Shown here: in pieces, positions 2,078-41,336 of the stretch
How the letters are laid out: every line of letters starts with the position of its first letter
Position numbering within the stretch: the stretch's first letter is position 1
Source of the DNA: a virus
Lineage: Duplodnaviria; Caudoviricetes
DNA: 50,445 bases
Virus record (IMG/VR): IMGVR_UViG_3300037258_000061
Coordinates: 1 to 50,445 of that record
Direction: 5' to 3' (one strand)
Translations under genes and position numbers: made by a program
The notes under the pieces: generated by a model
What the model was told of the DNA's origin: nothing
The model's input: the letters and a program-made list of their open reading frames with translations, nothing else
The model's database searches: none

Positions 2078-3034
2078 CTACGGCCCCATCGACCCCCAGG
2101 TTCCCTGCCACTGTGGGCATCCAGCACTAACTCTGAAACGAACCTTCTGCTTAATTGCATCCGTATCGAAGTCGTTGTCGAATGTGGTAGTTTCACGCTC
2201 ACGATTGTAGAATGTGAGAGCCGTGTCCATCTTATCTGCAGTCAAGAACCAACTAGAAGCAGACGTAAAGTAATGGCACTGCATAACATCGAGATTCTCA
2301 GGAAGAATAGAGTTGATCTCGTTGTCAGACGTGTACGGTTTGCCCGGTGAGCCAAGAATCTCACGAGCAATGAAGATTAACTCAGGCGGAATCAATAGAT
2401 GCTTCCAGCGTGATGCAGTTGGAAAGCCTCTATTATCAACCATACGATTTGCCTGGTTGATTGCAAGTTGTAGACCAGCGATTGATAGATCAATATCAGT
2501 CTCTGGACGGTTGGGATAAGTACCAGCAGCAGTGATGATATTGCCCAAACCCGGAGCAATAGCAGTTGCCTGTGAACCACCAAGCAATGCGTGCTGATTG
2601 TAGAACAGCGGATTGCCGTCAAACGTTACGACGTTAGAGCTGAAGCCCTGATTAAAGATGCTCCAAGCAATAACTTCGCGTGTGAAACGAGAGCTGCGAG
2701 CAAGTGTACGAGGACCTTGACGAATAAGACCATACTGGTCATCATCCATCAGTTCCTTTGATGTACGAATGCCCAAGCTATAAGTCAAGTGCAGGAAACG
2801 ATACGAACCGCCCTGAATCATAGCTGTATACTGCGTGGGTGTATTCTCAGGTTTCTCTTGAAGCGGCCCAACACCTGCCATTTCAAGTTCCTGTTCATAC
2901 ATTGCGTCAGATCCCTTTACGTTAAACACCGTAGGGTACTCTTCTGCGCGCTGTTCCATGTCTTGCCAGTCTTTGTAAATCTTCTTAAGACCGGGAGCCA
3001 TGAGCTGATAAAACATTCCGCGTACTTGGCTCAT
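2078..3034 (-). CDS. Major capsid protein (HK97 fold, Mu gpT-like family)
   Basis: 318 aa; N-terminal LMAPGLKKIY, ELMDDDQYG, DGNPLF, LLIPPEL and C-terminal WQGTWGS resemble this capsid family; lies downstream of scaffold and decoration genes. Confidence 0.88.
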   Translation of the reverse strand: MSQVRGMFYQLMAPGLKKIYKDWQDMEQRAEEYPTVFNVKGSDAMYEQELEMAGVGPLQEKPENTPTQYTAMIQGGSYRFLHLTYSLGIRTSKELMDDDQYGLIRQGPRTLARSSRFTREVIAWSIFNQGFSSNVVTFDGNPLFYNQHALLGGSQATAIAPGLGNIITAAGTYPNRPETDIDLSIAGLQLAINQANRMVDNRGFPTASRWKHLLIPPELIFIAREILGSPGKPYTSDNEINSILPENLDVMQCHYFTSASSWFLTADKMDTALTFYNRERETTTFDNDFDTDAIKQKVRFRVSAGCPQWQGTWGSMGP

Positions 3035-5397: not shown

Positions 5398-5760
5398 TTA
5401 ATTTGACTTAGATGGTTCAGTTTTAATACCTTCTTGCGCTCTCATTGCTTTTAGTTGTTCTTCTTTAAAATCATGATGTTTCTTTGCAGTTTGAGGGAGA
5501 AGTATAGCTTGATCTACTTCATGTAAAGCTCCGCGATGCTTATTTATCTCATCTAGTGTGAGATTGCTATTGTACAGTATCTCCTGTATTAGGAATACCC
5601 TGCGGAAGTTGAGGTATTCCAGAATTGCCTGCATTTCCACCGAATGGTATTGAACCGCCAGCGCTTGGTGATTGCTGATTAGTTTGGGCCACGGGTTTTG
5701 TAGTTCCACCACTCCCGCCGCTCCGGATACCTGCTGAGTTGACTCCTGCTTCGAGTTCAT
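5398..5760 (-). CDS. Hypothetical protein downstream of and overlapping the portal gene
   Basis: 120 aa; AGGAG RBS; small helical protein in the usual post-portal position; overlaps the portal's low-complexity tail. Confidence 0.65.
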   Translation of the reverse strand: MNSKQESTQQVSGAAGVVELQNPWPKLISNHQALAVQYHSVEMQAILEYLNFRRVFLIQEILYNSNLTLDEINKHRGALHEVDQAILLPQTAKKHHDFKEEQLKAMRAQEGIKTEPSKSN

Positions 5761-7579
5761 TTTGCTCCTGTTCTAACAACTGTTGTACTCCTTGAGGCAA
5801 TGGTGCAAGTCTTTCTACGTCTGGATGCTCAAAGTTACGTAGAATTCTACGAACTAAAGCATTTTTTGCTATCAAACACTCCATCATATATTGTTTTAAC
5901 TCAGGTGGCATTTGCTGAGTTGTAACAATGGCTGCTACAGTTTGCTGATCTGACTGTTGAATCCGTTCTAGAGTTGAAAGCAGAAGCATATCATTCTGCT
6001 TTTCAAGTTCTTTGTTGTTGCTTGCTGTAGCTGGCTTAATCAGAAGACCAAGCTTTCCATTCTTATAGTTTTCAAGTGCTGCTTTAAGAATTTGAGCTTT
6101 ATCACCATAGCTACGCAGTCGATTACCACTAATACCATAAGTTGCGTATTGTGTAAGAATCTTTCGACCCATACGAACGTGAGCCGAGCGCATATCACTC
6201 ATGCGCAAGTTGTTCCGATTGTTAGAAGCCTGCATTGCTATTGCAGTTCCCTGCGCTGAATAGTTACCACGCTTCGGATTTACAATTCCACCTCCTGCAC
6301 CACCCACTGCAGGATCAACACCTGATCTATCTTTCGCAAGAGAGAGTGTAAGCATCTCATCTTCAGATGTAATAGTTGCGCCGGGCGCTCCAAGAGTCAA
6401 TAGTTCTAGATCATCCTTCGGTGCTGGGATAACTGCGCCAGGATAAATTTGAATTACAGATGATAAGGAACTCCCTGTGTTAATTCTGACAACCCCAGTA
6501 TTTGCGAGGTCACGATTATCAACACGTTGATTATGAATTCTCGAAACTTCTCGTTGGTACATCTCCAACATTTCCATGAATCCATAACCATAGTACTGGT
6601 CGTCATCATAGGCAAGTTTCGCATCTTCAAATGGAACCTCATTCTTTGGATAGGGATTAAATATACCACCCAAAAGAGATTTAGACTTATGATGCCAGTG
6701 AGCAATGATTCTGTACTTCTTACCACCCATCCACCAAGAGAACCAGCACTCGTGAAAGTCCCACTCACCTCCAACATTACTCCAATTGTTGTTCATTCCC
6801 TTAGATTCTTCTTGCATGGCCTGCATATAGTCAGGGCCTTGTCTATCAGGACCAAGATCCAAGAGCGTTTGCAACTTTGCTTTGTCGTAAATATGAAGGT
6901 CTTCGTTCTTTTCGATCAAATCACGTAGCTGTGGCTTCTTGTATGGCACAATATGAGCCATGAAGTCACAATTACGCAAGTTTGAGGTCTGGGGATCGAC
7001 TAGAAAACGATTGAGTGGCACATTCTCAGGACGAGGATTATCAAAAATCGTCTCTGTTTCGAATCTTGATGAACCTTCCCCGCCTGTGTACACTTGTTCT
7101 TGAGTAAAGAGCCAGGGAAATTTAGCAATTCCAGTGCCATAACGACCTGCGGAGGCAAATACAACTTCCTCGACGCGGTATAAATCTAATTCCATCGGAT
7201 CGAGAGATACATCTGACATGAAAGCTTCGATCATAGCTCTCTGATCGTCTCCAACACCCTTCTTCCAATCACCAAGGATCGAAGCTACAAATAGCTGATC
7301 GCTTTGGTAGATCGACATTATTCGAGATAGCAGCTCGTCAGAATGAGTAGCGGCTAACTGTACGACTAAGTTGCTTGCCATAGGCCAAGGAAATGTTTTT
7401 TCCTTAACTTCTGGTATACCTTTGTAAGTCTTAACCCACTTCGGTAAAAGGTCTTCACGCAGATTCTGAGTTTTCGCCATCAAATACGAAATCTGATTGA
7501 AGATGTAACTCTTCAAATCATCCAACTCTTGCGTATTTGAAATCTCTTTTTCTAGCGAAAGAACTTTAGGAAAGGGCAT
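5567..7579 (-). CDS. Portal protein (podovirus/P22-like)
   Basis: 670 aa downstream of TerL; PWPMASNLVV, YGTGIAK, YYGYGFMEML and IYPGAVIP motifs. Confidence 0.88.
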   Translation of the reverse strand: MPFPKVLSLEKEISNTQELDDLKSYIFNQISYLMAKTQNLREDLLPKWVKTYKGIPEVKEKTFPWPMASNLVVQLAATHSDELLSRIMSIYQSDQLFVASILGDWKKGVGDDQRAMIEAFMSDVSLDPMELDLYRVEEVVFASAGRYGTGIAKFPWLFTQEQVYTGGEGSSRFETETIFDNPRPENVPLNRFLVDPQTSNLRNCDFMAHIVPYKKPQLRDLIEKNEDLHIYDKAKLQTLLDLGPDRQGPDYMQAMQEESKGMNNNWSNVGGEWDFHECWFSWWMGGKKYRIIAHWHHKSKSLLGGIFNPYPKNEVPFEDAKLAYDDDQYYGYGFMEMLEMYQREVSRIHNQRVDNRDLANTGVVRINTGSSLSSVIQIYPGAVIPAPKDDLELLTLGAPGATITSEDEMLTLSLAKDRSGVDPAVGGAGGGIVNPKRGNYSAQGTAIAMQASNNRNNLRMSDMRSAHVRMGRKILTQYATYGISGNRLRSYGDKAQILKAALENYKNGKLGLLIKPATASNNKELEKQNDMLLLSTLERIQQSDQQTVAAIVTTQQMPPELKQYMMECLIAKNALVRRILRNFEHPDVERLAPLPQGVQQLLEQEQNELEAGVNSAGIRSGGSGGTTKPVAQTNQQSPSAGGSIPFGGNAGNSGIPQLPQGIPNTGDTVQ

Positions 7580-19046: not shown

Positions 19047-19875
19047 AATAGAAAACAAAAATGCTACAGCATTTTCGGATTTGGAGAATCAAAATGAACG
19101 ATCAACAAATAGTAGTATGGTATCGAATATTCGAGAAAGTAGCAGTGGTAGCTATAATAATATTGGGATTGATATACCTTTTAAAACGGAGATAACCTCT
19201 TCAGAACTTCCAGACAAAGTCTGCACCCAGTGCTTAGAAGACAACTTAATTAAAAAAGGTATTATAGAAACCTTTACTCCGTGTCAGAAATGCGGCGAAG
19301 AATTTTGCATCCACGGAGTTTCAAAGCTTGATCCACAGTATTGTATTCACTGCTGCAATGATTTCAAGATCGTTGATGTAATTGAACAAGAGCAACGACC
19401 GATCTTTAATAAAGACGGCGCTCTCATTGCAGTCCGCCAGTTTAAAGTGCGGCACATAACTCTTTCAGGATTGCACTGGCTATTTTTCAACCGTGCGATA
19501 ACAAATCTTTCAGACATTGAGTTGGAACACGCGATAGAATACCACCAGAGTATCTATCATGGGATGATCTATGAGAGAGAAGCTCGCAGAGTTCAGAAAG
19601 CTCATCGCAACAAAGGTAAAGTTGCGGGCAATGAGAATCACAGTATTACGCAAAATCCGTTTGAGTCTACTCAAGATGGAGTTAGATTCGTCACAGGAAC
19701 AGGAACTCCTACTCAGAAAAAAGTTAGAACTCGCACGGTTAAAGTATCTCAATCTTCTACAGGAATTACAGGAACTAAAAAAGGTCTCTCTCCAGAAGCA
19801 CTCCAAGCTTTAGTTGCAGAGTTAATGAAAGCTGGCTTGAGCCAGGAACAGATACTTGCGATAGGAAAAAAATGA
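18985..19875 (+). CDS. Zinc-finger protein, paralogue of 15037-15675
   Basis: CTQC...CQKCGEEFCIH...YCIHCC; GGAG RBS. Confidence 0.7.
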   Translation: MSLPEFQVSQPEPPDQPPQDEIENKNATAFSDLENQNERSTNSSMVSNIRESSSGSYNNIGIDIPFKTEITSSELPDKVCTQCLEDNLIKKGIIETFTPCQKCGEEFCIHGVSKLDPQYCIHCCNDFKIVDVIEQEQRPIFNKDGALIAVRQFKVRHITLSGLHWLFFNRAITNLSDIELEHAIEYHQSIYHGMIYEREARRVQKAHRNKGKVAGNENHSITQNPFESTQDGVRFVTGTGTPTQKKVRTRTVKVSQSSTGITGTKKGLSPEALQALVAELMKAGLSQEQILAIGKK

Positions 19876-20612
19876 CTTTACGTAAAACTGATGGTCAAAT
19901 AGCGAGAGCTAGAAAAGAGTGGAAACTAATGTCAAACGTTGATTTTAACATGATTGAAGCTTTAATCGCACAGGAACCAATTGGTAATCTCATGCAAATT
20001 AAAGACATTGTTGATAAAGAGATACAGTTTTGCAGAAATAACATGGCGAAACAAGCTGTACAGCAAGAAACAGCAGCAAAACGTGCAATTCCTCGCATGG
20101 AAGGACAGTTGCGAAGAGCAGATCGAACTGATGAGTTTGATAACTTGAAAACGCAGGCGGGAATTGGTGCAGTTGATCCTCGTATTCAAACTGTACTTGG
20201 TACAGGTCTTAGCGACGTTGGACAAGAATCATTGAAAGCAAATTATCAAGAAAGCTTGCACAGAGATGTTTCTGGAGCTACCAGCGGAGAGAAAAAAATC
20301 CGTTATGATCTAATGCTGCGCAGTGTTTTAGAAGCCTACTCTCGTAGACTCACAGCGGGCGCAAATAAACATGGTGATAACAACTACCTGAAGGGATTGG
20401 ACTCTCCAACTTTTATTCGAGAGCGTATCAATCATCTTTATCATCATGTATTAGCTTTGAATAATATTCACAGCTCGGACATAGAAACTCCCCAGGACAA
20501 TTTGGATGCGATTTTGTGGAATGCAGGATTCCTGTGTGAAGTTCTGTGTACCGAAAATGGTATGAAGCTTTTTTACGAAGTTGTAACTAAGCCAAACTAT
20601 ACCAGACGCTAA
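19872..20612 (+). CDS. dATP/dGTP diphosphohydrolase-like protein (DUF5664-type domain) with N-terminal extension
   Basis: KIRYDLM...GANKHGDNNYLKG...HLYHH...DNLDAILWNAGFL pattern. Confidence 0.75.
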   Translation: MTLRKTDGQIARARKEWKLMSNVDFNMIEALIAQEPIGNLMQIKDIVDKEIQFCRNNMAKQAVQQETAAKRAIPRMEGQLRRADRTDEFDNLKTQAGIGAVDPRIQTVLGTGLSDVGQESLKANYQESLHRDVSGATSGEKKIRYDLMLRSVLEAYSRRLTAGANKHGDNNYLKGLDSPTFIRERINHLYHHVLALNNIHSSDIETPQDNLDAILWNAGFLCEVLCTENGMKLFYEVVTKPNYTRR

Positions 20613-32894: not shown

Positions 32895-34493
32895 TTAAAC
32901 TGTCCACCAATTTGTGCCGTCATACTCTATGGTCATTTTTGAATATTGTGTTATCAAAGTTGGATTAGCTGCTCCATCTATAGTTCCGACTATAGTTAGA
33001 ACAGTAGTTCCATCTGACTTTTTAAAAGTATGTCTCTGGCCAGCATAAGCCTGAGTTGAAAGTGTTACAGAGAATGTGCCAGTGGTTACAATCATTCCAT
33101 CGGTGGGCAGAAGAGTATAGTTAGCACTCTTAGCAGCTACCTGCGAGCTAGGAAATACTCCGGCTCCTCTCATAGAAGTTATAGCAGCATACGAGTCTGC
33201 GAGTTTGGCAATATTAGCGGGGTCTAAGGCGGCGATATATAATTCTGCAATTCCGATGTTAGTCATTGCAAGTGCAGCAGTAATAGCTGCGTAACTCTCG
33301 CCTTGCTCATTTACTACATAGAACCCGTTGATAGTCATTCGCTCAAGAGTTAGAGCCGCAGTCGCAGATAGCAACGGAGTACCGGTATTATTACCAGCCA
33401 TAGTTCTGGAAATTCGACAGTTATTCAGTGTGATCGCAGAGATAGTGGCAGCAAAATTACAGAGCAAGAATGAGCCAGCCCCTGTGGGACTTAGCCAGGT
33501 ACAGTTAGAAAACTCGATGTCTCCTAGACCACCTTGTAGTTGTACGTAATTTCCGGCAGTACTAAATACATTATTACTTGCAATCAGTTTACGTACTAGA
33601 TCGCCAGTGTTAGGCACAGTAGTACTACCAAGAATGAACACACTAGTGGTTGTGCTACCAGCGTTGTCTGCAATTACTACTTTGCCAACTTGTCCTTCGA
33701 CGTTGCCATATACTCTAAATGCGTTCAAACAATTGAATATTGTGTTATTGCTAACTACTGCATCGTCTATCAAACCGCCGTAGCCCTCAAACGCATTAAG
33801 TGCAATAGCATCATCAGAACCATTGTTATCAATATAATTACCCTTGATTCGTATAGCAGATGCAGGACCATCAATGTGAACACCATCTTGATTGAAAGTA
33901 TCTGTCACATTTGGATTTATGATCGTATTGTTCTGAACTACAGCATCAGAACAGTTATTCAATCTAATCTCATAGGCTGCTGAATCGTAGAGATACATAT
34001 CCTCAATACGAACGCCGTTAAGATTTGCTAGATTGATATTGCAATACCAATATGTACCAGTTACTCCACGGGGATCACCTGAAGTTGAATTTCCAGTTGT
34101 TCCATCTCCACGATTGCCATTTATCATGAAGTTTCGCAGGCATACATTCTCACCGCTGGCTGGAGGAGTGGTATCTTGATCGAACGGAAGAATTTTTCCG
34201 TTATTAATCGGATCGGCATTAGAACCTGACGCTATCCAGATACCAGAATCCCACCCTATTCCTTCGATAGTAGTATGGCCAGCTACTGCAACTACTAAAC
34301 CAGTTACTAATGAAGGACCGTCTAGAATTAACTTAAGCGGATTTGTAGCAGAAGCACCAGCTAGAAATTTATTAAGCGCAACAGTGTTATCGGTGGCCGT
34401 TCCGCCACCAATCTTGGCTCCAGTCGCTAAGTCACAATCCAGCACAACACCAGCTATAGAAGATGCTTTTACTTCATTGAATGGCTGATTCAT
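32895..34493 (-). CDS. Tailspike/depolymerase, pectate-lyase-like right-handed beta-helix
   Basis: TDNTVALN, DGVHIDG, DDAIAL and Asn-ladder repeats; C-terminal YDGTNW domain. Confidence 0.85.
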   Translation of the reverse strand: MNQPFNEVKASSIAGVVLDCDLATGAKIGGGTATDNTVALNKFLAGASATNPLKLILDGPSLVTGLVVAVAGHTTIEGIGWDSGIWIASGSNADPINNGKILPFDQDTTPPASGENVCLRNFMINGNRGDGTTGNSTSGDPRGVTGTYWYCNINLANLNGVRIEDMYLYDSAAYEIRLNNCSDAVVQNNTIINPNVTDTFNQDGVHIDGPASAIRIKGNYIDNNGSDDAIALNAFEGYGGLIDDAVVSNNTIFNCLNAFRVYGNVEGQVGKVVIADNAGSTTTSVFILGSTTVPNTGDLVRKLIASNNVFSTAGNYVQLQGGLGDIEFSNCTWLSPTGAGSFLLCNFAATISAITLNNCRISRTMAGNNTGTPLLSATAALTLERMTINGFYVVNEQGESYAAITAALAMTNIGIAELYIAALDPANIAKLADSYAAITSMRGAGVFPSSQVAAKSANYTLLPTDGMIVTTGTFSVTLSTQAYAGQRHTFKKSDGTTVLTIVGTIDGAANPTLITQYSKMTIEYDGTNWWTV

Positions 34494-36259
34494 CGAGCCC
34501 CCGCGGCTGTGTAATTGGTTTCATCCGTTTGAGATAACAAACGGTTATAGATACGTGTATAGGCTATAACACCAGCAATCAAAGGTTGAGTGCCATCTGT
34601 GCGAGCGCCAAGACTTACACTCTTAGTGTTGACAAGGCTTCCAGTAAGTGTATCTTCAACAGGACTATTGTTGGTACACAATATTCCATCGATATAGAAA
34701 GCCACTCCGGCTGCTGTCTTACTTCCATCATAAGCCATAGTAACTCTATGAGTAGTTGCTGTGGTCAATACTGTAGTAGTTCCAACTTCTATGGCATTAG
34801 ACGGGTAGTCATTTACTAGAAAAGCATGAAGGTGAAATGCAGTTCCACCTGTAGCATCGATGGTAAATTCCCAGCCAATAAAATTATTATTTGGATCAAG
34901 CGTACTTGCTATAGTACGTTCGGATGTAGCGGCACCAGTGATATTAACATAAGCTGATACACTAAATGGAGTTGCGCCGTTGAAATTGGTAGCGGTCTGA
35001 TTCACGCCTGTAGTGTAGGCAGTGGCACTAAATAACGGAGTAAGTCCGGGTAAAGAAGAAGTAGACTGCCAAGTCAATGTACCAGTCTGCAACGTTTCTA
35101 TATTACTAGTACCACATCCGTCAGCAAAAGTAGTTCCTGTACCATCAGTCATTGGCCAGCATTCAACCATTCCTTGATTGATAGTACCTACAGTTAGAGT
35201 AGGACTAGTTGAATGCGAATTAGTTCCGTCATTACCAGTCACACTAAATGTAGTACTTGCAGGAGTCTGGCTGAATGGAAAACTTATTGTAAGAGTATTA
35301 CTGCCAGCCCCAGTAATAGTCGTGGGACTAAAAACTCCTGTCATTCCAGAAGCTAATCCGCTATCAGTATACGAAGCTGTTCCACTATAACCACCGGATA
35401 TAGATTGATTTATAGTGAAAGTAGGAGATTGAGTCCCACTCATAGTGGGCTCGTAAATCTGAGTCGAGGGACTAGAAGATACACTGAAAGCAGCAGCAAT
35501 AGCTGAAGTAGCAGTAAATGTACAAATATAAGTACCAGCTGAAGGTACTGTAATACTTGTATCGTTAGCATCTACTGATGTAGCAGTCCAGACCGCAAAA
35601 CTAGAGCTAGTGTAGCAGGTTACCTGTGGATAGAGAGAATTTAGATTATGCTGGAAAGTAAAAGAACCTGCACCAGAATAAATGTTTTCGAGTGTGACAG
35701 AAGTTCCACCGCTTCCACCACCACTGTTATTCCAAGTAGTGCCATTCCAAGTTCTACTCACACCGCTTATCAGATTGAAATAAGTTCCACCGATAGGTGG
35801 ATTTACAATCTCAACATCTGCATAAGCTCGCGTACCAAAAGCTATCGGAATACGAATAGCTTTAATCAGCCCATTGATATATGTGCTAAGACTCTGGCTT
35901 GAACCACTTATTGTTGTTGGAGTTATAGTTTGGGCGGGTGCTGTAGCTGCACTGGTAATTGTAATTGCCCACTGAGTATTTACAGGAGTAACAGAAGCAT
36001 TAGGGCAGAGCGTAGTTGAAAATGCTCCACTACTGTTTAAACTGGCAGTAACTGTAGTTTGAGCAGGAGTCATCAAAGTTCCACTGCAAAAATAACTTTG
36101 ACCCCCATTTCCAACTAAGTGAAATGTTATACTTCCGTTTGCCCAAGCAATGTTATCTGGATCAGTTACAGTTCCAGTAACAGTTGTTGATGCTGCATTA
36201 GCTGCAACTGCGAAGCCCAATATCAAAGGCAGCAAGCAAAATTTCATGAATTTAGACAT
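34490..36259 (-). CDS. Tail-fibre-like protein with signal peptide and C-terminal LamG/concanavalin domain
   Basis: MSKFMKFCLLPLILGFAVAANA/A signal; FSVSAYV, YDGS, FYIDG and RIYNRLLS LamG motifs; GAGGAG RBS. Confidence 0.8.
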   Translation of the reverse strand: MSKFMKFCLLPLILGFAVAANAASTTVTGTVTDPDNIAWANGSITFHLVGNGGQSYFCSGTLMTPAQTTVTASLNSSGAFSTTLCPNASVTPVNTQWAITITSAATAPAQTITPTTISGSSQSLSTYINGLIKAIRIPIAFGTRAYADVEIVNPPIGGTYFNLISGVSRTWNGTTWNNSGGGSGGTSVTLENIYSGAGSFTFQHNLNSLYPQVTCYTSSSFAVWTATSVDANDTSITVPSAGTYICTFTATSAIAAAFSVSSSPSTQIYEPTMSGTQSPTFTINQSISGGYSGTASYTDSGLASGMTGVFSPTTITGAGSNTLTISFPFSQTPASTTFSVTGNDGTNSHSTSPTLTVGTINQGMVECWPMTDGTGTTFADGCGTSNIETLQTGTLTWQSTSSLPGLTPLFSATAYTTGVNQTATNFNGATPFSVSAYVNITGAATSERTIASTLDPNNNFIGWEFTIDATGGTAFHLHAFLVNDYPSNAIEVGTTTVLTTATTHRVTMAYDGSKTAAGVAFYIDGILCTNNSPVEDTLTGSLVNTKSVSLGARTDGTQPLIAGVIAYTRIYNRLLSQTDETNYTAAGAR

Positions 36260-36276: not shown

Positions 36277-37617
36277 TTAGTTATGAACCCCTATACATTC
36301 AATGCTTCCGAAAGAAGCATTACCATCAGAACCTTTTGATACAGTCAGGGTGTTTATTGTAGTAGCTGTTTTAGAACCCCAACCAGTTAAATCTATAGCA
36401 TTTGCTTCTGTACTTGAACCAGAATTAAAAGGTGTTCCTCCCATACAAGTAACTTGATAATTTGTATCAGCAAAACCTCCCCCAGACCACGTTAAAGTAT
36501 CAGAACAAGAAGCACCTGTGGGTGGACCAGAGGGTGTAGTACAACCCGGGGTTATTACAGCAGTTCTAATTACTTGGGTAGATGGAGCAGTTCCATTTGT
36601 ACAAGCTGTAACTCTACCATACGCATCAATAACTTGCGAAGAAGGAGAGGTGCAGGTTTTATTAGCACCTACTTGAGCAGCATCAATCTCAGTTGAATCC
36701 ATACCTGAATCAACAACATTGAAAAAACTAGTAAATGTAAAAATTGGTTCTTGAGGCAACGAAGTTCCAGGAGGAAAATGTATATTCTGATAATATATAC
36801 TAGTACCGACTGGAAGATAAGGTAACGCAGGAATCATTGCTGCAGTTAGCGAGCAAAAGTTAGGTGTAGCTGTAGAAGTAGTACAGTTAGCAAATACCTT
36901 ATTTGCTGCTGCAGTATCTAGAGTAAAAGTTAAATCTGGATTTGTAGGATCACCTCCAAGTGAAGTAGTAAATAGAGGAGGTAAATCACCCGCACTAAGA
37001 GATGCAACTCCAGATAGAAAATTGTGCCAAGCTTGATCTTGTCCCCAATATCTGGGACATCCAATACTTGCACACGAACCACCAACGTTAAGATAAAAAT
37101 AACCTGCGAAACTTGGGTTCGGAGCTACTTCGCTATCATTATAGGCACGATATAAAAACGTTGAAGTAATTTTTAATCCGAGAGTATTCGCAGTGAAATT
37201 TGAACTAAAGTCTATCGAAGATCCCGTAATCGTAAGTGACCTAATGACAGAACATGGTGCTGTTGCGTTAGGACAAATAGTAAGAGTATAAGTACTACCA
37301 GCAGGAGTAATAAAGTTGTTGGATTGAACCCCACTCTGCGAAAAAGCACCGGAGCCGTCCAGACTTCCCTGTGTAAGCCATTCTGACGTAGGAAAAGGAG
37401 CGCCATTCCAATGCACATTATTAGTAGGATTATTAGGATTAGGAACGAATTGTAATGTCCATGTGCCATTTGACCATACCTGTGATGATTGATCTACAGC
37501 AGTTGTAGTTACAGTAGTTGATTGTGCTCCTGCAGGGAGACACATTAACATGAATGCGATAGCTATAGCTATGAAAATCATCCAAGGACTAACTTCAGAG
37601 CGCATTAACTGCCGCAT
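36277..37617 (-). CDS. Tail-fibre-like protein with signal peptide, paralogue of 34490-36259
   Basis: Start ATG 37617 after GGGAGG; IFIAIAIAFMLMCLPAGA/Q signal; IDAYGRVT fibre motif; Cys pairs. Confidence 0.78.
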   Translation of the reverse strand: MRQLMRSEVSPWMIFIAIAIAFMLMCLPAGAQSTTVTTTAVDQSSQVWSNGTWTLQFVPNPNNPTNNVHWNGAPFPTSEWLTQGSLDGSGAFSQSGVQSNNFITPAGSTYTLTICPNATAPCSVIRSLTITGSSIDFSSNFTANTLGLKITSTFLYRAYNDSEVAPNPSFAGYFYLNVGGSCASIGCPRYWGQDQAWHNFLSGVASLSAGDLPPLFTTSLGGDPTNPDLTFTLDTAAANKVFANCTTSTATPNFCSLTAAMIPALPYLPVGTSIYYQNIHFPPGTSLPQEPIFTFTSFFNVVDSGMDSTEIDAAQVGANKTCTSPSSQVIDAYGRVTACTNGTAPSTQVIRTAVITPGCTTPSGPPTGASCSDTLTWSGGGFADTNYQVTCMGGTPFNSGSSTEANAIDLTGWGSKTATTINTLTVSKGSDGNASFGSIECIGVHN

Positions 37618-38011
37618 CGTATTCCTCCCAGTTAACTCCAAGTTCACTAGCCATGAATCTTTCAATACGAGTTGCCGTTTGATGCTGCTTAAAATAGGGA
37701 GCGTTTGGATCATCGCCAGGTTCGTCACACTCGCCGTGCATTCCTTTTGCACGTTCGTCTTCAAACTTGATATCAAAATCAGTTACAGCTTGCTCTTCAA
37801 CTCCATCAAGCCAGCAGAGGAGAGCTTCAACTTGTTCATGCACTGATACGAGCAAATTATACTTATAATTACCCATATCGCTAATGCGAATATGAAGAGT
37901 TGTGTAACGCCAAAACCAGTCGCCAACTGTGGGATAACGTTGGCAGCGATGTGCGATGAATCTAATACTAAGTGCAACTAAATCCTTGCGCGAACCTTTT
38001 CTAACTGGCAT
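37595..38011 (-). CDS. HExxE metal-binding protein (putative metallopeptidase/hydrolase)
   Basis: RYPTVGDW...VHEQVEALLC...EPGDDPNAPYFKQHQTATRIE; TAATG coupling with the ATP-grasp gene. Confidence 0.7.
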   Translation of the reverse strand: MPVRKGSRKDLVALSIRFIAHRCQRYPTVGDWFWRYTTLHIRISDMGNYKYNLLVSVHEQVEALLCWLDGVEEQAVTDFDIKFEDERAKGMHGECDEPGDDPNAPYFKQHQTATRIERFMASELGVNWEEYDAAVNAL

Positions 38012-39318
38012 TAGATCCATCCCATCTCTTTGAGTTTGAAAAATCTCTTCATAATACTTTTTTGTAAATCTGTTCGGTGTTGCATGTCAGGAATCTCAAT
38101 CTTTTCAATGCGAGCATCTAATTGAGCGAATGCACCTTGAGGAGTTGCGCTAACTTCAATAGGACAACAAATCAATCCATTGACGCCAGCGCATACTAGT
38201 TCCGCACTCTTGCCCGAGCCCTGCATCATTACATCATAAAAATAGGTCTTCATTAACTCTTCTTCTGAGTTAATATCAATACCTTTAACTGGAATACCTT
38301 TAACTTTAGCTAACCTGATTTCTGTTGGGTAAGGTGGTATAGTGATTCTTGCCGATACGCCATACTCCGCTTTCCACTTTTGTTCAGGAATTCCACCAGT
38401 TGCCACCCGCTTGAGAAGTTCGCCAAAATCACCACCATACATATTAAACAAAGTAGCTGAAGCATCATAGCCGAAACGAGGAGTCCATTCCAGACCATAT
38501 AGTTTTTCCTCCGTTGCTATCGTATTTAGATCGATCATGCCACGATAACCGAGAGCAGAAAGTACCTCACGAGCTTTAGCTAGACCTTCTGTAAATACAC
38601 GCGAGCCAGGATTTAGAGTAAACACTAAATTACCTGAACATCCTGTATTTGGGCCTATTCCGTCATTCATAAACTTTTTTTCTTCTAGTGTGCAATTCAA
38701 GCAGTAGAAGTCATTTCCGTTAAACCATCCTTCTACGGAAACTTCAATACCGGGCTTAAATTCTTGAAGAATGAAGGGAGAACCTTTAGATAGAAGAAAT
38801 AGTTTATCAATATACTCCAGCATATCAGTATCAGAATAGCTAACATAAGTTGTCCCAGCATCCTGATCTTGCCCACCGTTTGGTTTGTAGACGTATCTTT
38901 TTTTGGTTTCCTTGATAAAAGATTTCGCAGTGGATACATCTGTGAACACCTCCCAGGCGGGCACATCTATACCAGCGTTCTCCATCATTTCTATGCCGAA
39001 GAGTCTATCTTCTTCGAGCATTTTGTGAGTTGAACCATCACCGATTGTAGGTGTTTGGTTGGAACTATGATCGGCTTGTCTCTCTCTTCCAGTAAGATCA
39101 AACACTGAGACATCATACTTAGAGTAATCGGGAAATCCGATGTTTTCATCACTCTTCCTGTTGTCATGAAACTTAACAAATGGAGTGGGAGCTATGCCTT
39201 GCATTACATCAGCATATTTGTTCATACTAAGGTAATAGTCTACAGAATGGCCCTGCATTCGCATAACCGCAGCAAACCAAGCACCATAGCCTGCATAACT
39301 TGACAAGGCAATCTTCAT
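38011..39318 (-). CDS. PurD/GARS-like ATP-grasp ligase
   Basis: YVYKP, ILQEFKPGIEVS, EEKKFMNDGIGPNTG, GMIDLN and LEWTPRFG align with PurD ATP-grasp motifs. Confidence 0.88.
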   Translation of the reverse strand: MKIALSSYAGYGAWFAAVMRMQGHSVDYYLSMNKYADVMQGIAPTPFVKFHDNRKSDENIGFPDYSKYDVSVFDLTGRERQADHSSNQTPTIGDGSTHKMLEEDRLFGIEMMENAGIDVPAWEVFTDVSTAKSFIKETKKRYVYKPNGGQDQDAGTTYVSYSDTDMLEYIDKLFLLSKGSPFILQEFKPGIEVSVEGWFNGNDFYCLNCTLEEKKFMNDGIGPNTGCSGNLVFTLNPGSRVFTEGLAKAREVLSALGYRGMIDLNTIATEEKLYGLEWTPRFGYDASATLFNMYGGDFGELLKRVATGGIPEQKWKAEYGVSARITIPPYPTEIRLAKVKGIPVKGIDINSEEELMKTYFYDVMMQGSGKSAELVCAGVNGLICCPIEVSATPQGAFAQLDARIEKIEIPDMQHRTDLQKSIMKRFFKLKEMGWI

Positions 39319-39356
39319 AGCTCCAACCCCATTTTAATTTTCACTTCGGGTTTTAA

Positions 39357-39503
39357 TTACTTCTTAGGTACGCAAACATCCATACCTTTAGGACCACTGT
39401 TAGGACTACCAGAACCCTTTGGTGTTGCACCGGGTCCGCGCTCAATCTTTTTCTGCATCGAGATTGACTCACTGCGTGACATATTTGCTGACTGTCCAGA
39501 CAT
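39357..39503 (-). CDS. 48-aa Gly/Ser/Pro/Lys-rich peptide (not in the ORF track)
   Basis: TAAGGAGGAAGT-ATG; MSGQSANMSRSESISMQKKIERGPGATPKGSGSPNSGPKGMDVCVPKK. Confidence 0.75.
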   Translation of the reverse strand: MSGQSANMSRSESISMQKKIERGPGATPKGSGSPNSGPKGMDVCVPKK

Positions 39504-39512
39504 ACTTCCTCC

Positions 39513-41336
39513 TTATTGAAAAGTCATTTTCTTCAAGCCACTCATCTTCAATCGCTTGAGTTTGTGAGATTGAGAAGCAGCCTCTTTCTCTTTCTTTGTT
39601 GGAACAAGCGCATGTTTTGCATAACGGCCTAGACCATATGGAAGACCAATTTCAAGAGCATCTCGTTCCGCAGCTTCAGGATGTATTTTCTTTCCTTCGA
39701 TTGCTCTGAATCCAAGTCCACCAAAGTCTTGTAGATATTTTGCTCCAGTTCCCAGCAATGGACCTGCCATCTGCTGAAGTAAAAACCCACGTTGTATACC
39801 TTGAATCAACTCAAATCCAACACCAAATGCACCAAGATGTGCATATGCATCTAGATAAACTCCAGCAAAATCTCTGGCTTTACCAGCAATTGATTCTGAC
39901 TTTTGTCCTGAGAGTTCTTCCCAGTCGTTATGTGCTTCAGCATGAATTGAACTCCACTGTCCACGTCCTACCATTTCAAGCATCTTCAAAGCTTCGCCAG
40001 CGGCTGGAAATAGAACGCCCATAATAGCAATTGACTTTGCTATCTGAGCTACATCTCCAGACTTAAATGCAATTGAAGCTTCATCTCGCATGAACTTAGC
40101 TTGAGATGAGATATATCCATGATACATAGTAAATGCGCGAGTCCAAGCATTCGACTGTGCCTTGTATGAGCGATTCATACTTGTATCTAAAAATATCTTC
40201 TTGTTGACTCCATTCCAGACTGCACGCTCTATTTGATCTGGAGTTAATTTTCCAGTTTCAGCTATCATTTGAAAGTCAGTTGGCTTCATACCATACTGCT
40301 CAAGTCTTGCTCTAGCTAACTTATTTGAAGGGTCGCGAGCAAGCTTATCAGCGTAATCAATAGCACTATGATAAGTAGCAGAACCTGTAAAAGCCATTTG
40401 CCAGTCGCGTACATAGTTGAAACCTGGAGTTGAAGTAACTTTTTGAATTACGTTTTGAAGAGTTCCTGGCAGATGTTTGACAATGGCCCCGTTTCTGCTA
40501 TCTTCAAACGCTCGCATAGCCCTGAGCGCACCTTCTGCTGTGATTCCACTTGCGATATGCTGTTGTTTAAGCTCTGCAAGAGATTTAAGATTTGTTGTTT
40601 CTCCCAATGCCTTAATAAGAGCTGACGTTTGAGTACTTTGAACTGTATTAAAAATAGTACCCAAGTGAGGAAGAGCAATAAGGGGACTAAAGCGAGAAGA
40701 GATAAAATTAGTAGCGGACTTTTCAATTTGGTCCGGTCTGCGATAGTCAGAACTAGTATTATAGTGCTGAACACCCAACTGATCCATAGCGCTATCAAGA
40801 GATATCTCAGATTTCTTTGCAAGCTCTTTAGCTTGTTTATATCTTGGATCGTTTTTCTCAATAACTTGCGAAGCGTTAGTTTTGAATCTACTCTCATGTC
40901 CATGAGTTCCAATTTTCTGATCTTCGTGCAAATACAGAGCAATGTTATCCATCATGTTCTGAGTTGCTATGTGACCATTATTTTGGTGAGATTGATGGGC
41001 AAGGAAAGTTAAAGCAGCATCATGAGAACCAAAGGTAGCTGTGCGAGCAGCAGTTCTTGCTTGACCCAGCAACTCTTGCGACTCAGGCATTTTTGTAATG
41101 ACTTTAGTTGCAAGATCATTTGTTGCTTTGGTATGCAAGCCTGCAAAGATTTGATCACTCTTTTGTCTGTAGCTAGTGAGTAATCCAGCTACATCTCTAC
41201 CTTCTTCAGTCTGGGATAGAGAATGACCTATAGAACGGATATAAGGTTCAGCTTTTTGAGTTGCTTTCGCAAGAAATTCCTTAGCCTGTGGGGCTAAGTC
41301 TTGCAGCAAGTCTCTAACTACGGGAGCACCTGCCAT
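39513..41336 (-). CDS. Putative internal virion/ejection protein
   Basis: 607 aa, helical with C-terminal hydrophobic segments; last of four large genes after the tail genes. Confidence 0.7.
   Translation of the reverse strand: MAGAPVVRDLLQDLAPQAKEFLAKATQKAEPYIRSIGHSLSQTEEGRDVAGLLTSYRQKSDQIFAGLHTKATNDLATKVITKMPESQELLGQARTAARTATFGSHDAALTFLAHQSHQNNGHIATQNMMDNIALYLHEDQKIGTHGHESRFKTNASQVIEKNDPRYKQAKELAKKSEISLDSAMDQLGVQHYNTSSDYRRPDQIEKSATNFISSRFSPLIALPHLGTIFNTVQSTQTSALIKALGETTNLKSLAELKQQHIASGITAEGALRAMRAFEDSRNGAIVKHLPGTLQNVIQKVTSTPGFNYVRDWQMAFTGSATYHSAIDYADKLARDPSNKLARARLEQYGMKPTDFQMIAETGKLTPDQIERAVWNGVNKKIFLDTSMNRSYKAQSNAWTRAFTMYHGYISSQAKFMRDEASIAFKSGDVAQIAKSIAIMGVLFPAAGEALKMLEMVGRGQWSSIHAEAHNDWEELSGQKSESIAGKARDFAGVYLDAYAHLGAFGVGFELIQGIQRGFLLQQMAGPLLGTGAKYLQDFGGLGFRAIEGKKIHPEAAERDALEIGLPYGLGRYAKHALVPTKKEKEAASQSHKLKRLKMSGLKKMTFQ

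What the first reader, a model, noticed from the sequence alone, without database searches (positions are those of the whole stretch)
37595..39503. Peptide + PurD-like ATP-grasp ligase + HExxE protein cassette inside the virion operon
Seen: between the last ejection protein and the fibre genes sit an unannotated 48-aa peptide with a very strong RBS (TAAGGAGG), a 435-aa ATP-grasp enzyme, and a translationally coupled ~138-aa protein with HEQVE and a distal H...E. The peptide has repeated PKG/GS motifs and several Lys. The enzyme keeps the PurD ATP-grasp core (GPNTG loop, E..PRFG) but lacks the PurD N-terminal GSGGREH motif, and no other purine genes are present. Known: ATP-grasp amidoligases occur with small substrate peptides and peptidases in peptide-tagging and graspetide systems. 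Inference: this is not a purine-synthesis gene but a ligase/hydrolase pair that modifies or cross-links the peptide or virion proteins, or makes a small molecule late in infection.
Basis: partly seen in the sequence, partly recalled or inferred. Interest (0 to 1): 0.82.

Follow-up and report, generated by a model that had tools for sequence, protein, structure and literature searches.

The report
Phage PurD-like ligase, not purine synthesis
An uncultured soil phage carries, inside its virion-gene block, a ligase that looks like the purine enzyme PurD but is not one, flanked by a conserved small basic protein and an optional metal-binding protein; what the ligase modifies is unknown.

Summary
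All three ORFs are real and lie at the stated coordinates on the minus strand.

- **The 435-aa enzyme.** It has a full-length PurD fold and keeps the ATP, Mg and carboxylate residues. It scores 59.5 bits against the purD model (cut-off 288). Its N-domain does not align to PurD by sequence. The CheckV-complete 50-kb genome has no PurA/PurZ, PurN or PurM/PurL-type (AIRS) gene.
- **Its family.** At least 1,151 proteins, mostly viral, are often named purD by pipelines. In every locus examined the gene lies among late or virion genes.
- **The 48-aa peptide.** It belongs to a small-protein family under purifying selection (dN/dS 0.04–0.27). It is found upstream of the ligase in 51 of 78 relatives. 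When a gene is inserted, the peptide stays with the upstream 607-aa gene.
- **The HExxE protein.** It is optional, present in 19 of 80 relatives. It recurs beside distant ligases in both gene orders, yet is common without any ligase, including in Nitrososphaerales chromosomes.

Verdict: this is not a purine gene, and it is not shown to be a fixed three-gene cassette. My best reading (0.35) is a late amide ligase acting on a phage-made protein or peptide, with a facultative hydrolase. Interest 0.6.

The parts
39513..41336 (-). 607-aa late protein of unknown family, directly upstream. Its TAA stop overlaps the peptide's ribosome-binding site.
   Evidence: ORF. No significant Pfam match and no PHROG match. 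tblastn found homologues upstream of the ligase in 47 of 80 related loci. Its role as an internal or ejection protein is inferred from size and position only.
39508..39514 (-). Shine-Dalgarno sequence AAGGAGG, 4 nt before the peptide's ATG.
   Evidence: Read directly from the sequence.
39357..39503 (-). 48-aa small basic protein. The N-terminus M-[SA]-G-Q-[SA]-A and a following helix are conserved; the rest is a variable Gly/Ser/Lys-rich tail.
   Evidence: Family found in 43 of 80 loci by jackhmmer. With the search limited to ORFs upstream of the ligase, it was found in 51 of 78 loci. dN/dS is 0.04-0.27 in 10 of the 12 close pairs scored. The profile found 89 stand-alone clusters of 36-79 aa. 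All 26 IMG/VR matches to the motif lie upstream of a ligase gene.
38011..39318 (-). 435-aa ATP-grasp carboxylate-amine ligase with a PurD fold that is not a PurD orthologue.
   Evidence: Pfam GARS_A 7.3e-10 and ATP-grasp_3; GARS_N was not among the matches. TIGR00877 scores 59.5 bits against a cut-off of 288. AF2 model pLDDT 88.6. Foldseek's best PDB matches are PurD: E 1.5e-26 for the top hit, TM 0.67-0.75. The catalytic residues are invariant across 24 homologues.
37595..38020 (-). 138/141-aa HExxE protein, translationally coupled to the ligase by a TAATG overlap. It is a small alpha/beta protein that probably binds metal.
   Evidence: 124 homologues, none with a Pfam family. Y29, T31, G33, H61, E62, E65, F82, D83, E100, G102, P108 and Y109 are invariant; H24, H113 and E120 are conserved in at least 90%. 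AF2 pLDDT 93.7. Weak fold likeness to minimal zincins: Z 4.3-5.0, TM about 0.5.
36277..37605 (-). First fibre-like protein. Its probable start, the ATG at 37605, overlaps the end of the HExxE gene. The N-terminus looks like a signal peptide.
   Evidence: ORF, junction. Its N-terminal domain is found downstream of the ligase in 71 of 80 loci.

Best explanation
**Shown**
- The 435-aa protein is a PurD-fold ATP-grasp ligase of a large, mostly viral family. It is not phosphoribosylamine-glycine ligase.
- It keeps the ATP, Mg and small-carboxylate site of PurD. The N-domain, which in PurD holds the amine substrate, has diverged beyond sequence recognition.
- The gene lies among late or virion genes in every lineage examined.

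**Inferred**
- Late in infection the enzyme activates a small, amino-acid-like carboxylate as an acyl phosphate. It then joins it by an amide bond to an amine on a phage-made macromolecule.
- The most likely acceptor is a Lys side chain or an N-terminus of a virion or ejected protein. The adjacent Lys-rich small protein is one candidate.
- Where present, the coupled HExxE protein is a facultative metal-dependent hydrolase that trims or reverses the product.
- The small protein is a genuine late protein. Its tie to the ligase is so far positional only.
For: **Not PurD**
- TIGR00877 scores 59.5 bits against a cut-off of 288.
- HMM alignments to solved PurDs start at residue 90-99, so the N-domain is not matched.
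- Of 30 nearest Atlas clusters, 28 are GARS_A-type or unnamed and lack GARS_N; the shown ones are 69-89% viral. Cellular PurD clusters carry GARS_N in 91-100% of members.
- The CheckV-100% genome has no PurA/PurZ, PurN or PurM/PurL-type (AIRS) gene.

**Probably active**
- The PurD residues listed in PMC8880213 (passages read) map onto family-invariant residues: E100>E102, K103>R105, K143>K145, E192>E192, D212>E212, K214>K214, R287>R281.
- E185>Q185 is not conserved in residue type, though Q185 is itself family-invariant. From the same alignment, E283 maps to invariant E277.
- The GPNTG loop is kept.
- The fold matches PurD over its full length: E 1.5e-26, TM 0.73.

**Late or virion setting**
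- The gene is on the same strand as the portal and capsid genes.
- A fibre-like gene lies downstream in 71 of 80 loci.
- Distant ligases sit beside scaffold-, capsid- or portal-like genes, as judged by eye from sequence and not tested.

**Partner**
- The HExxE gene lies within 4 genes of the ligase in 12 of 20 ligase lineages (under 55% identity).
- It lies upstream in 4 lineages and downstream in the others, often with overlapping stop and start codons.

**Importance**
- The only longer form found carries a LAGLIDADG insert.
Against: - No result identifies the acceptor.
- To my knowledge (recalled), characterised enzymes of the PurD/PurK/PurT/biotin-carboxylase lineage act on small molecules, not proteins.
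- The Mg-ligand Asn of PurD (my own identification, from the alignment and recall) is Thr279 in the whole family.
- PurD E292 aligns to A286, so the amino-group pocket is only partly kept.
- The HExxE gene is absent beside the ligase in 61 of 80 loci.
- It is present in 14 of 19 near-complete viral genomes that have no ligase.
- It is present in 44 Nitrososphaerales/Thaumarchaeota loci with no ligase nearby.
- Among lineages found through the ligase alone, only 4 of 12 have it. The 12-of-20 figure is therefore inflated by how the loci were found.
- In 9 loci a gene is inserted between the peptide and the ligase, and the peptide stays next to the 607-aa gene.
- A late-operon position would also fit a packaged enzyme.
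Confidence: 0.35

Rival explanations
1. The ligase acts on a small molecule or a host target, not on phage proteins. It could aminoacylate a polyamine or a nucleotide-derived amine, make a small amide metabolite late in infection, or be packaged and ejected to act early in the next cell. On this reading the peptide and the HExxE protein are unrelated neighbours.
For: PurD and biotin carboxylase, the closest folds, act on small substrates (recalled). The peptide follows the 607-aa gene, not the ligase, when genes are inserted. The HExxE family lives largely without the ligase.
Against: Ligase and HExxE genes recur side by side in both orders across distant lineages. No transport, nucleotide or polyamine gene is linked to the ligase in any locus examined. 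There is no evidence of packaging.
Confidence: 0.3
2. The three genes are a dedicated peptide system in which the 48-aa peptide is the substrate. It is either cross-linked or cyclised as in graspetides, or ligated as a tag to virion proteins as in pupylation, and the HExxE protein is the processing peptidase.
For: The peptide has a conserved N-terminal part and a variable tail. It is under purifying selection. All 26 IMG/VR motif matches lie upstream of a ligase gene. The triad of peptide-like ORF (alike by eye, homology not tested), ligase and HExxE gene is kept in L111 and L092, where the ligase is only 24-25% identical.
Against: The ligase is of PurD type, not RimK/MdnC or PafA type. The tail has no conserved Asp/Glu or Thr/Ser acceptor pattern and no Gly-Gly-Gln/Glu end. 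The HExxE gene is missing in 61 of 80 loci. The peptide is equally linked to the 607-aa gene. Ligases in L081, L110, L136, L143 and L160 have no such peptide upstream.
Confidence: 0.12
3. The enzyme is a true PurD auxiliary metabolic gene that boosts host purine synthesis.
For: It has a full-length PurD fold. Source pipelines name many homologues phosphoribosylamine-glycine ligase. Viral purD/GART genes are listed as AMGs in PMC11097641 and PMC11360552 (passages read).
Against: It scores 59.5 bits against a purD cut-off of 288. There is no GARS_N match and the GGREH loop is replaced. The genome has no other purine gene. The gene lies in the late virion block, not with the replication and nucleotide genes on the other strand.
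Confidence: 0.03
4. The protein is an inactive ATP-grasp shell re-used as a structural virion component.
For: It lies in the virion-gene block. The Mg-ligand Asn is replaced by Thr.
Against: The residues that bind ATP, Mg and carboxylate in PurD are invariant across 24 homologues of 52-83% identity.
Confidence: 0.05

Closest known systems
PurD (phosphoribosylamine-glycine ligase, GAR synthetase)
   Same: It has the same full-length multi-domain fold: E 1.5e-26 for the top PDB hit, TM 0.67-0.75, and TM 0.82-0.84 to Atlas models of true PurD. The GPNTG loop is kept, as are the E-x-x-x-R motif and the residues that bind ATP and the glycine carboxylate in PurD.
   Different: It is 15-20% identical to solved PurDs. 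It scores far below the equivalog cut-off. The N-domain does not align by HMM and the GGREH loop is replaced. The Mg-ligand Asn is Thr. There is no purine pathway context. The family is mostly viral and lies in late operons.
ATP-grasp ligase and hydrolase pairs (recalled examples: tubulin TTLL glutamylases with CCP metallocarboxypeptidases; glutathionylspermidine synthetase/amidase)
   Same: An ATP-dependent amide ligase is encoded with, and often translationally coupled to, a small protein that carries a metal-site-like His/Glu set.
   Different: The pairing is facultative. Hydrolase activity of the HExxE protein is not shown. The two proteins are not homologous to those enzymes. The comparison rests on recall, not on a test.
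Graspetide (microviridin-type) and Pup-type peptide systems
   Same: A small ribosomal peptide with a conserved N-terminal part is encoded next to an ATP-grasp ligase.
   Different: The ligase belongs to another ATP-grasp lineage. The peptide tail has no conserved acceptor or C-terminal motif. The peptide is just as tightly linked to the upstream late gene.
Minimal zincin metallopeptidases (selecase, IrrE/PprI, CapP, SprT/SPRTN), compared with the HExxE protein
   Same: A three-stranded sheet is followed by a helix carrying H-E-x-x-E and a later helix with conserved H and E. These proteins head the structure searches.
   Different: The motif is HExxE, not HExxH. The scores are weak (Z 4.3-5.0, TM about 0.5, Foldseek E 0.4 or worse). 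14 of 37 members also give a weak match to the DtxR-type metal-binding domain, best E 2.8e-4.

Membership tests
PurD (TIGR00877 equivalog) | Whole-protein score above the curated cut-off | tested here: not met
   59.5 bits against a cut-off of 288.
PurD (TIGR00877 equivalog) | GARS_N domain with the Gly-rich GGREH loop that holds phosphoribosylamine (the role of the loop is recalled) | tested here: not met
   GARS_N is not among the Pfam matches. HMM alignments to nine solved PurDs start at residue 90-99. The loop position reads YAGYGAWF. Viral clusters lack GARS_N, whereas 91-100% of cellular PurD cluster members carry it.
PurD (TIGR00877 equivalog) | ATP-grasp catalytic and glycine-carboxylate residues | tested here: met
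   E102, R105, K145, E192, E212, K214, E277 and R281 are invariant and align to PurD E100, K103, K143, E192, D212, K214, E283 and R287. Exceptions are E185>Q185, N285>T279 and E292>A286.
PurD (TIGR00877 equivalog) | Works in purine synthesis: pathway context, and complements purD | tested here: not met
   Context: the complete genome has no Adenylsucc_synt, Formyl_trans_N or AIRS match. Complementation cannot be tested with these tools.
ATP-grasp superfamily | ATP-grasp fold and domain match above threshold | tested here: met
   GARS_A 39.4 bits (cut-off 27) and ATP-grasp_3 28.7 bits (cut-off 23.2). The fold search agrees.
Graspetide / RiPP ATP-grasp system | RimK/MdnC-type ligase | tested here: not met
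   The closest sequences and folds are PurD, then biotin carboxylase. RimK-type viral proteins match only at TM 0.33-0.35.
Graspetide / RiPP ATP-grasp system | Precursor with a conserved core motif of acceptor and donor residues | tested here: not met
   Only M1, G3, Q4 and A6 are conserved in at least 90% of 38 sequences. The C-terminal two thirds are variable.
Graspetide / RiPP ATP-grasp system | Enzyme binds and modifies the peptide | not testable with these tools
   This needs co-expression and mass spectrometry.
Zincin metallopeptidases (for the HExxE protein) | HExxH zinc-binding motif | tested here: not met
   The invariant motif is H61-E62-x-x-E65 in 37 of 37 sequences.
Zincin metallopeptidases (for the HExxE protein) | Zincin fold | tested here: inconclusive
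   Best matches are selecase Z 5.0, CapP 4.7, PprI 4.6 and SPRTN 4.3. Foldseek E is 0.4 or worse. Atlas TM is 0.48-0.50 to Peptidase_M78 and SprT-like clusters.

The most novel reading that the evidence does not exclude
The small basic protein, the PurD-like ligase and the HExxE protein form a phage protein-modification system. The ligase either aminoacylates the small protein or attaches it to virion or ejected proteins. The HExxE protein acts as processing or erasing hydrolase. This would be a viral counterpart of pupylation or tubulin-type aminoacylation, built on a purine-enzyme scaffold.
Probability: 0.12. Interest if true: 0.85.

Novelty: new variant of a known kind. Interest (0 to 1): 0.6.

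Why it matters
- **Annotation.** More than a thousand viral proteins of this family are on record, and one Atlas cluster alone has 1,171 members. Pipelines often name them phosphoribosylamine-glycine ligase. Surveys count viral purD/GART genes as auxiliary purine genes. I did not check whether those surveys' proteins belong to this family. For this family that reading is very probably wrong.
- **Biology.** An ATP-dependent amide ligase fixed in the virion-gene block of a whole clade of uncultured soil phages points to late chemistry on a protein, peptide or small amine. That chemistry has no described counterpart among cultured phages. There is no PHROG match, only 5 distant hits in 50,697 phage records, and no close fold in BFVD.
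- **Testability.** The enzyme, the peptide and the HExxE protein are small and could be expressed and assayed directly.

Tried and rejected
- **Co-folding.** Ligase alignment, peptide alignment and ATP: no answer, score 0.01. This counts neither for nor against binding.
- **RNA evidence.** No RNA holder was listed; only soil DNA runs were found. Contigs from four runs were laid on the stretch. Related strains bridge the peptide and the start of the ligase, and no indel was listed in the peptide. Most differences were not printed, so I made no count of synonymous changes.
- **Peptide searches.** tblastn with the peptide found 0 of 80 loci, because the query is too short. The search for related loci with the peptide alignment returned nothing confirmed. 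I replaced it with a degenerate DNA pattern.
- **Relatives lacking the ligase.**
  - The 607-aa alignment had no block conserved enough to search with.
  - The portal search gave 27 loci, but only 3 contigs over 30 kb, and all 3 were already known to carry the ligase.
  - Whether the ligase is dispensable in the clade therefore stays open.
- **Family libraries.** PHROGs, NCBIfam for the peptide and the HExxE protein and PADLOC gave no match.
- **Fused forms.** Only one longer homologue was found, with a LAGLIDADG insert and no partner domain.
- **Literature.** Searches found no paper on a PurD-like ATP-grasp in a phage virion module. Iyer et al. 2009 on amidoligases is not held, so I could not check what it says about phages. 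Supplementary files of the AMG papers were not seen.
- **DNA hypermodification.** I considered this and dropped it. No known base-modification gene was found among the 36 proteins scanned. The exception is a dGTP_diPhyd_N-domain protein, and it has no PurZ partner.
Full report
**1. The observation**

All three ORFs are on the minus strand at the coordinates given.

- The 48-aa ORF (39357-39503) starts 4 nt after AAGGAGG, which overlaps the TAA stop of the upstream 607-aa gene.
- The 435-aa ORF (38011-39318) follows after 38 nt.
- The third ORF (37595-38020) overlaps the ligase stop codon.
- The next gene, which is fibre-like, most likely starts at an ATG (37605) that overlaps the end of the third ORF.

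**2. The setting**

- The window is a whole virus record of 50,445 bases, rated 100% complete by CheckV. GC is 42.4% and there is no exact terminal repeat.
- The minus strand carries a SU10-type portal (5567-7579), a capsid protein (2078-3034) and a beta-helix protein (32895-34493).
- The plus-strand block carries DNA polymerase A, FtsK-, PD-(D/E)XK-, AAA_24- and DUF3987-type proteins and a GH108 endolysin.
- The cassette therefore sits in the late, virion-gene block.
- The 607- and 1222-aa proteins upstream have no significant Pfam match and no PHROG match. Calling them ejection proteins is inference.
- No cultured relative exists in the phage collection. The portal matched 6 records at 21-23% identity. 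The ligase matched 5 records at 21-25%.

**3. The ligase**

*Sequence and fold*
- Pfam gives GARS_A (7.3e-10) and ATP-grasp_3, but not GARS_N.
- The purD equivalog model gives 59.5 bits against a cut-off of 288.
- A model built on 24 homologues (pLDDT 88.6) matches solved PurDs over its full length: E 1.5e-26 for the top hit, TM 0.67-0.75, 15-20% identity. Biotin carboxylases come next, at about 1e-18.
- HMM alignments to PurD begin only at residue 90-99.

*Active-site mapping*
- I mapped the residues listed for PurD in PMC8880213 (passages read) onto the alignment with chain 2yw2. All nine residue types fit that numbering.
- The family keeps, invariantly, E102, R105, K145, E192, E212, K214 and R281. 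E277, which aligns to PurD E283, and the GPNTG loop are also kept.
- PurD E185 is Q185 here, N285 is T279, and E292 aligns to A286.
- I read this as an active ligase with a PurD-like pocket for ATP and a small carboxylate, and a different amine site.

*The family*
- 1,151 proteins match at E ≤ 0.001. The best 120 are all at least 51% identical and cover at least 93% of the query (117 of them at least 99%). Many lie on 45-51 kb contigs, and source pipelines often name them phosphoribosylamine-glycine ligase.
- Atlas clusters of 50, 87, 1,171 and 173 members are 69-89% viral and lack GARS_N.
- BFVD has no close fold; the best match has TM 0.46.
- The only longer form carries a LAGLIDADG insert.
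- The genome has no PurA/PurZ, PurN or PurM/PurL-type (AIRS) gene.

**4. Synteny of the ligase**

- I took 80 IMG/VR loci found through the ligase (38-63% identity).
- tblastn found the fibre-like N-terminal domain downstream in 71 of 80, the 607-aa protein upstream in 47, the 1222-aa protein in 36 and the HExxE protein in 19.
- Ten MAG contigs also carry the ligase. One is a 638-kb contig binned as Gammaproteobacteria, and several are binned as Acidobacteriaceae or Terracidiphilus.

**5. The peptide**

*Detection*
- tblastn found nothing, because the query is too short.
- A jackhmmer search over 9,763 small ORFs of both strands hit exactly one ORF in each of 43 of 80 loci. Each was on the ligase strand, just after the 607-aa homologue.
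- I then limited the search to 308 ORFs upstream of the ligase and seeded it from a long form. The family now covers 51 of 78 loci, including forms of 80-97 aa.
- A second family covers 13 further loci. Fourteen loci are unassigned, and most of these hold a small ORF that looks similar.

*Properties*
- The 38 distinct short forms are 41-62 aa with mean net charge +4.4. They are rich in Lys, Ser, Gly and Ala.
- M1 and G3 are invariant, and Q4 and A6 are conserved in at least 90%.
- Twelve close pairs were scored. Ten give dN/dS 0.04-0.27. The pair L019/L017 gives 0.64, and L016/L018 has two non-synonymous and no synonymous changes.
- The profile finds 89 clusters among 1.84 billion representatives. 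All are 36-79 aa and none is part of a larger protein.
- It is a real gene.

*Link to the ligase*
- A DNA pattern for the motif found 26 places in IMG/VR. Twenty-four are in contigs already in the ligase set. The other two also have the ligase just downstream.
- All of these also have the 607-aa homologue upstream.
- In 9 loci (L004, L011, L016, L017, L018, L025, L026, L028, L050) an extra gene lies between the peptide and the ligase. There the peptide stays with the 607-aa gene.
- The link to the ligase therefore cannot be separated from plain synteny.
- Distant ligases are preceded by other small basic proteins. One of these is DUF3008. Such proteins are common in late modules, so this is weak support.

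**6. The HExxE protein**

*Family and fold*
- It has 124 homologues and no Pfam family.
- Y29, T31, G33, H61, E62, E65, F82, D83, E100, G102, P108 and Y109 are invariant. H24, H113 and E120 are nearly so.
- The model is confident (pLDDT 93.7): three strands and then four helices, with HExxE on the first helix.
- Structure searches give only weak matches, though minimal zincins head them: selecase Z 5.0, CapP 4.7, PprI 4.6, SPRTN 4.3, and TM about 0.5 to Peptidase_M78 and SprT-like clusters.
- Fourteen of 37 members also weakly match the DtxR-type metal-binding domain.
- I call it a probable metal-binding protein, possibly a hydrolase.

*Distribution*
- IMG/VR holds 324 relatives.
- Of the best 80 loci, 20 have a ligase within 5 kb. 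Eleven of those ligases are only 24-33% identical to the window's enzyme.
- The HExxE gene lies upstream of the ligase in L110, L136, L143 and L160. It lies on the opposite strand in L145, and downstream in the other 15. Stop and start codons often overlap.
- Clustering 90 distinct ligases at 55% identity gives 20 lineages. The HExxE gene is within four genes in 11 of them, or 12 counting L143, which my ORF caller missed. No other gene family reaches more than 4 lineages.
- Eight of those lineages were found through the HExxE gene itself. Among lineages found through the ligase alone, the figure is 4 of 12.
- Of 26 long viral contigs with the HExxE gene but no adjacent ligase, 7 have a ligase match elsewhere. 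One of those 7 is a weak 36-residue match (E 1.9e-4). Among contigs at least 90% complete, the figure is 5 of 19.
- In genome contigs, 44 of 52 hits are in Nitrososphaerales/Thaumarchaeota MAGs. There the gene lies in a conserved chromosomal neighbourhood with ParB_N, SelR and a xylose-isomerase-like TIM-barrel gene, and no ligase.
- A 1.59-Mb contig binned as Acidobacteriota (L212) has ligase and HExxE gene side by side.
- The two genes are linked more often than I would expect from independent placement, and the changes in gene order point to selection for linkage. Neither gene needs the other.

**7. Reading**

*Shown*
- The enzyme is not PurD.
- It is a probably active ATP-grasp ligase of a large, mostly viral family.
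- It lies among late genes.
- The peptide is a conserved small protein.
- The HExxE protein is an optional neighbour that probably binds metal.

*Inferred*
- The ligase joins a small carboxylate to an amine on a phage-made macromolecule late in infection. The HExxE protein would be an optional hydrolase.
- I put this at 0.35.
- A small-molecule or host target, possibly with packaging of the enzyme, is nearly as likely at 0.30.
- The dedicated peptide cassette gets 0.12, an inactive structural role 0.05 and true PurD 0.03.

**8. Novelty**

- The literature searches found no description of this family. Iyer et al. 2009 could not be read.
- Viral purD/GART genes are reported as purine AMGs (PMC11097641 and PMC11360552, passages read). 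I did not check whether those proteins belong to this family.
- I rate it a new variant of a known kind of enzyme, with interest 0.6.

Noticed in passing
window 36277-37605 and 34490-36259 (minus strand); also L162, L163, L166: The fibre-like proteins downstream of the cassette begin with a signal-peptide-like segment: a short charged start, about 15 hydrophobic residues, then a small-residue site. A shared Thr/Val-rich domain follows. Paralogues in relatives begin the same way. This is odd for tail fibres, which assemble in the cytoplasm. No signal-peptide predictor was on hand.
   Followed up: partly
L173-L218 (genome contigs): The HExxE protein family is a conserved chromosomal gene of Nitrososphaerales/Thaumarchaeota MAGs (44 of 52 hits). 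There it is 160-185 aa with a basic N-terminal extension. It lies next to ParB_N, SelR (MsrB) and xylose-isomerase-like TIM-barrel genes.
   Followed up: partly
window 19872-20612 (+): A 246-aa protein matches the N-terminal domain of dATP/dGTP diphosphohydrolase (PF18909, 1.1e-11). From recall, that domain is known from phages with 2-aminoadenine genomes. No PurZ/PurA-like gene is in the genome.
   Followed up: partly
P0241 (778 aa): One ligase homologue is interrupted by a LAGLIDADG_3 domain, which looks like an intein or homing-endonuclease insert.
   Followed up: no
L163 (638-kb contig) and L212 (1.59-Mb contig): Ligase-bearing late-gene blocks lie inside very long contigs binned as Gammaproteobacteria and Acidobacteriota. 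Some members of the wider group may therefore be prophages, and these bins hint at hosts.
   Followed up: no
L036, L048, L049, L143, L145: Other small basic proteins sit next to the ligase in some lineages. One is DUF3008, and others start with MPLKKG.
   Followed up: partly
window 39319-39356: The 38-nt spacer between the peptide and the ligase holds a short inverted repeat, AACCC ... GGGTT, with a 17-nt loop. It is too weak to call a structure.
   Followed up: no
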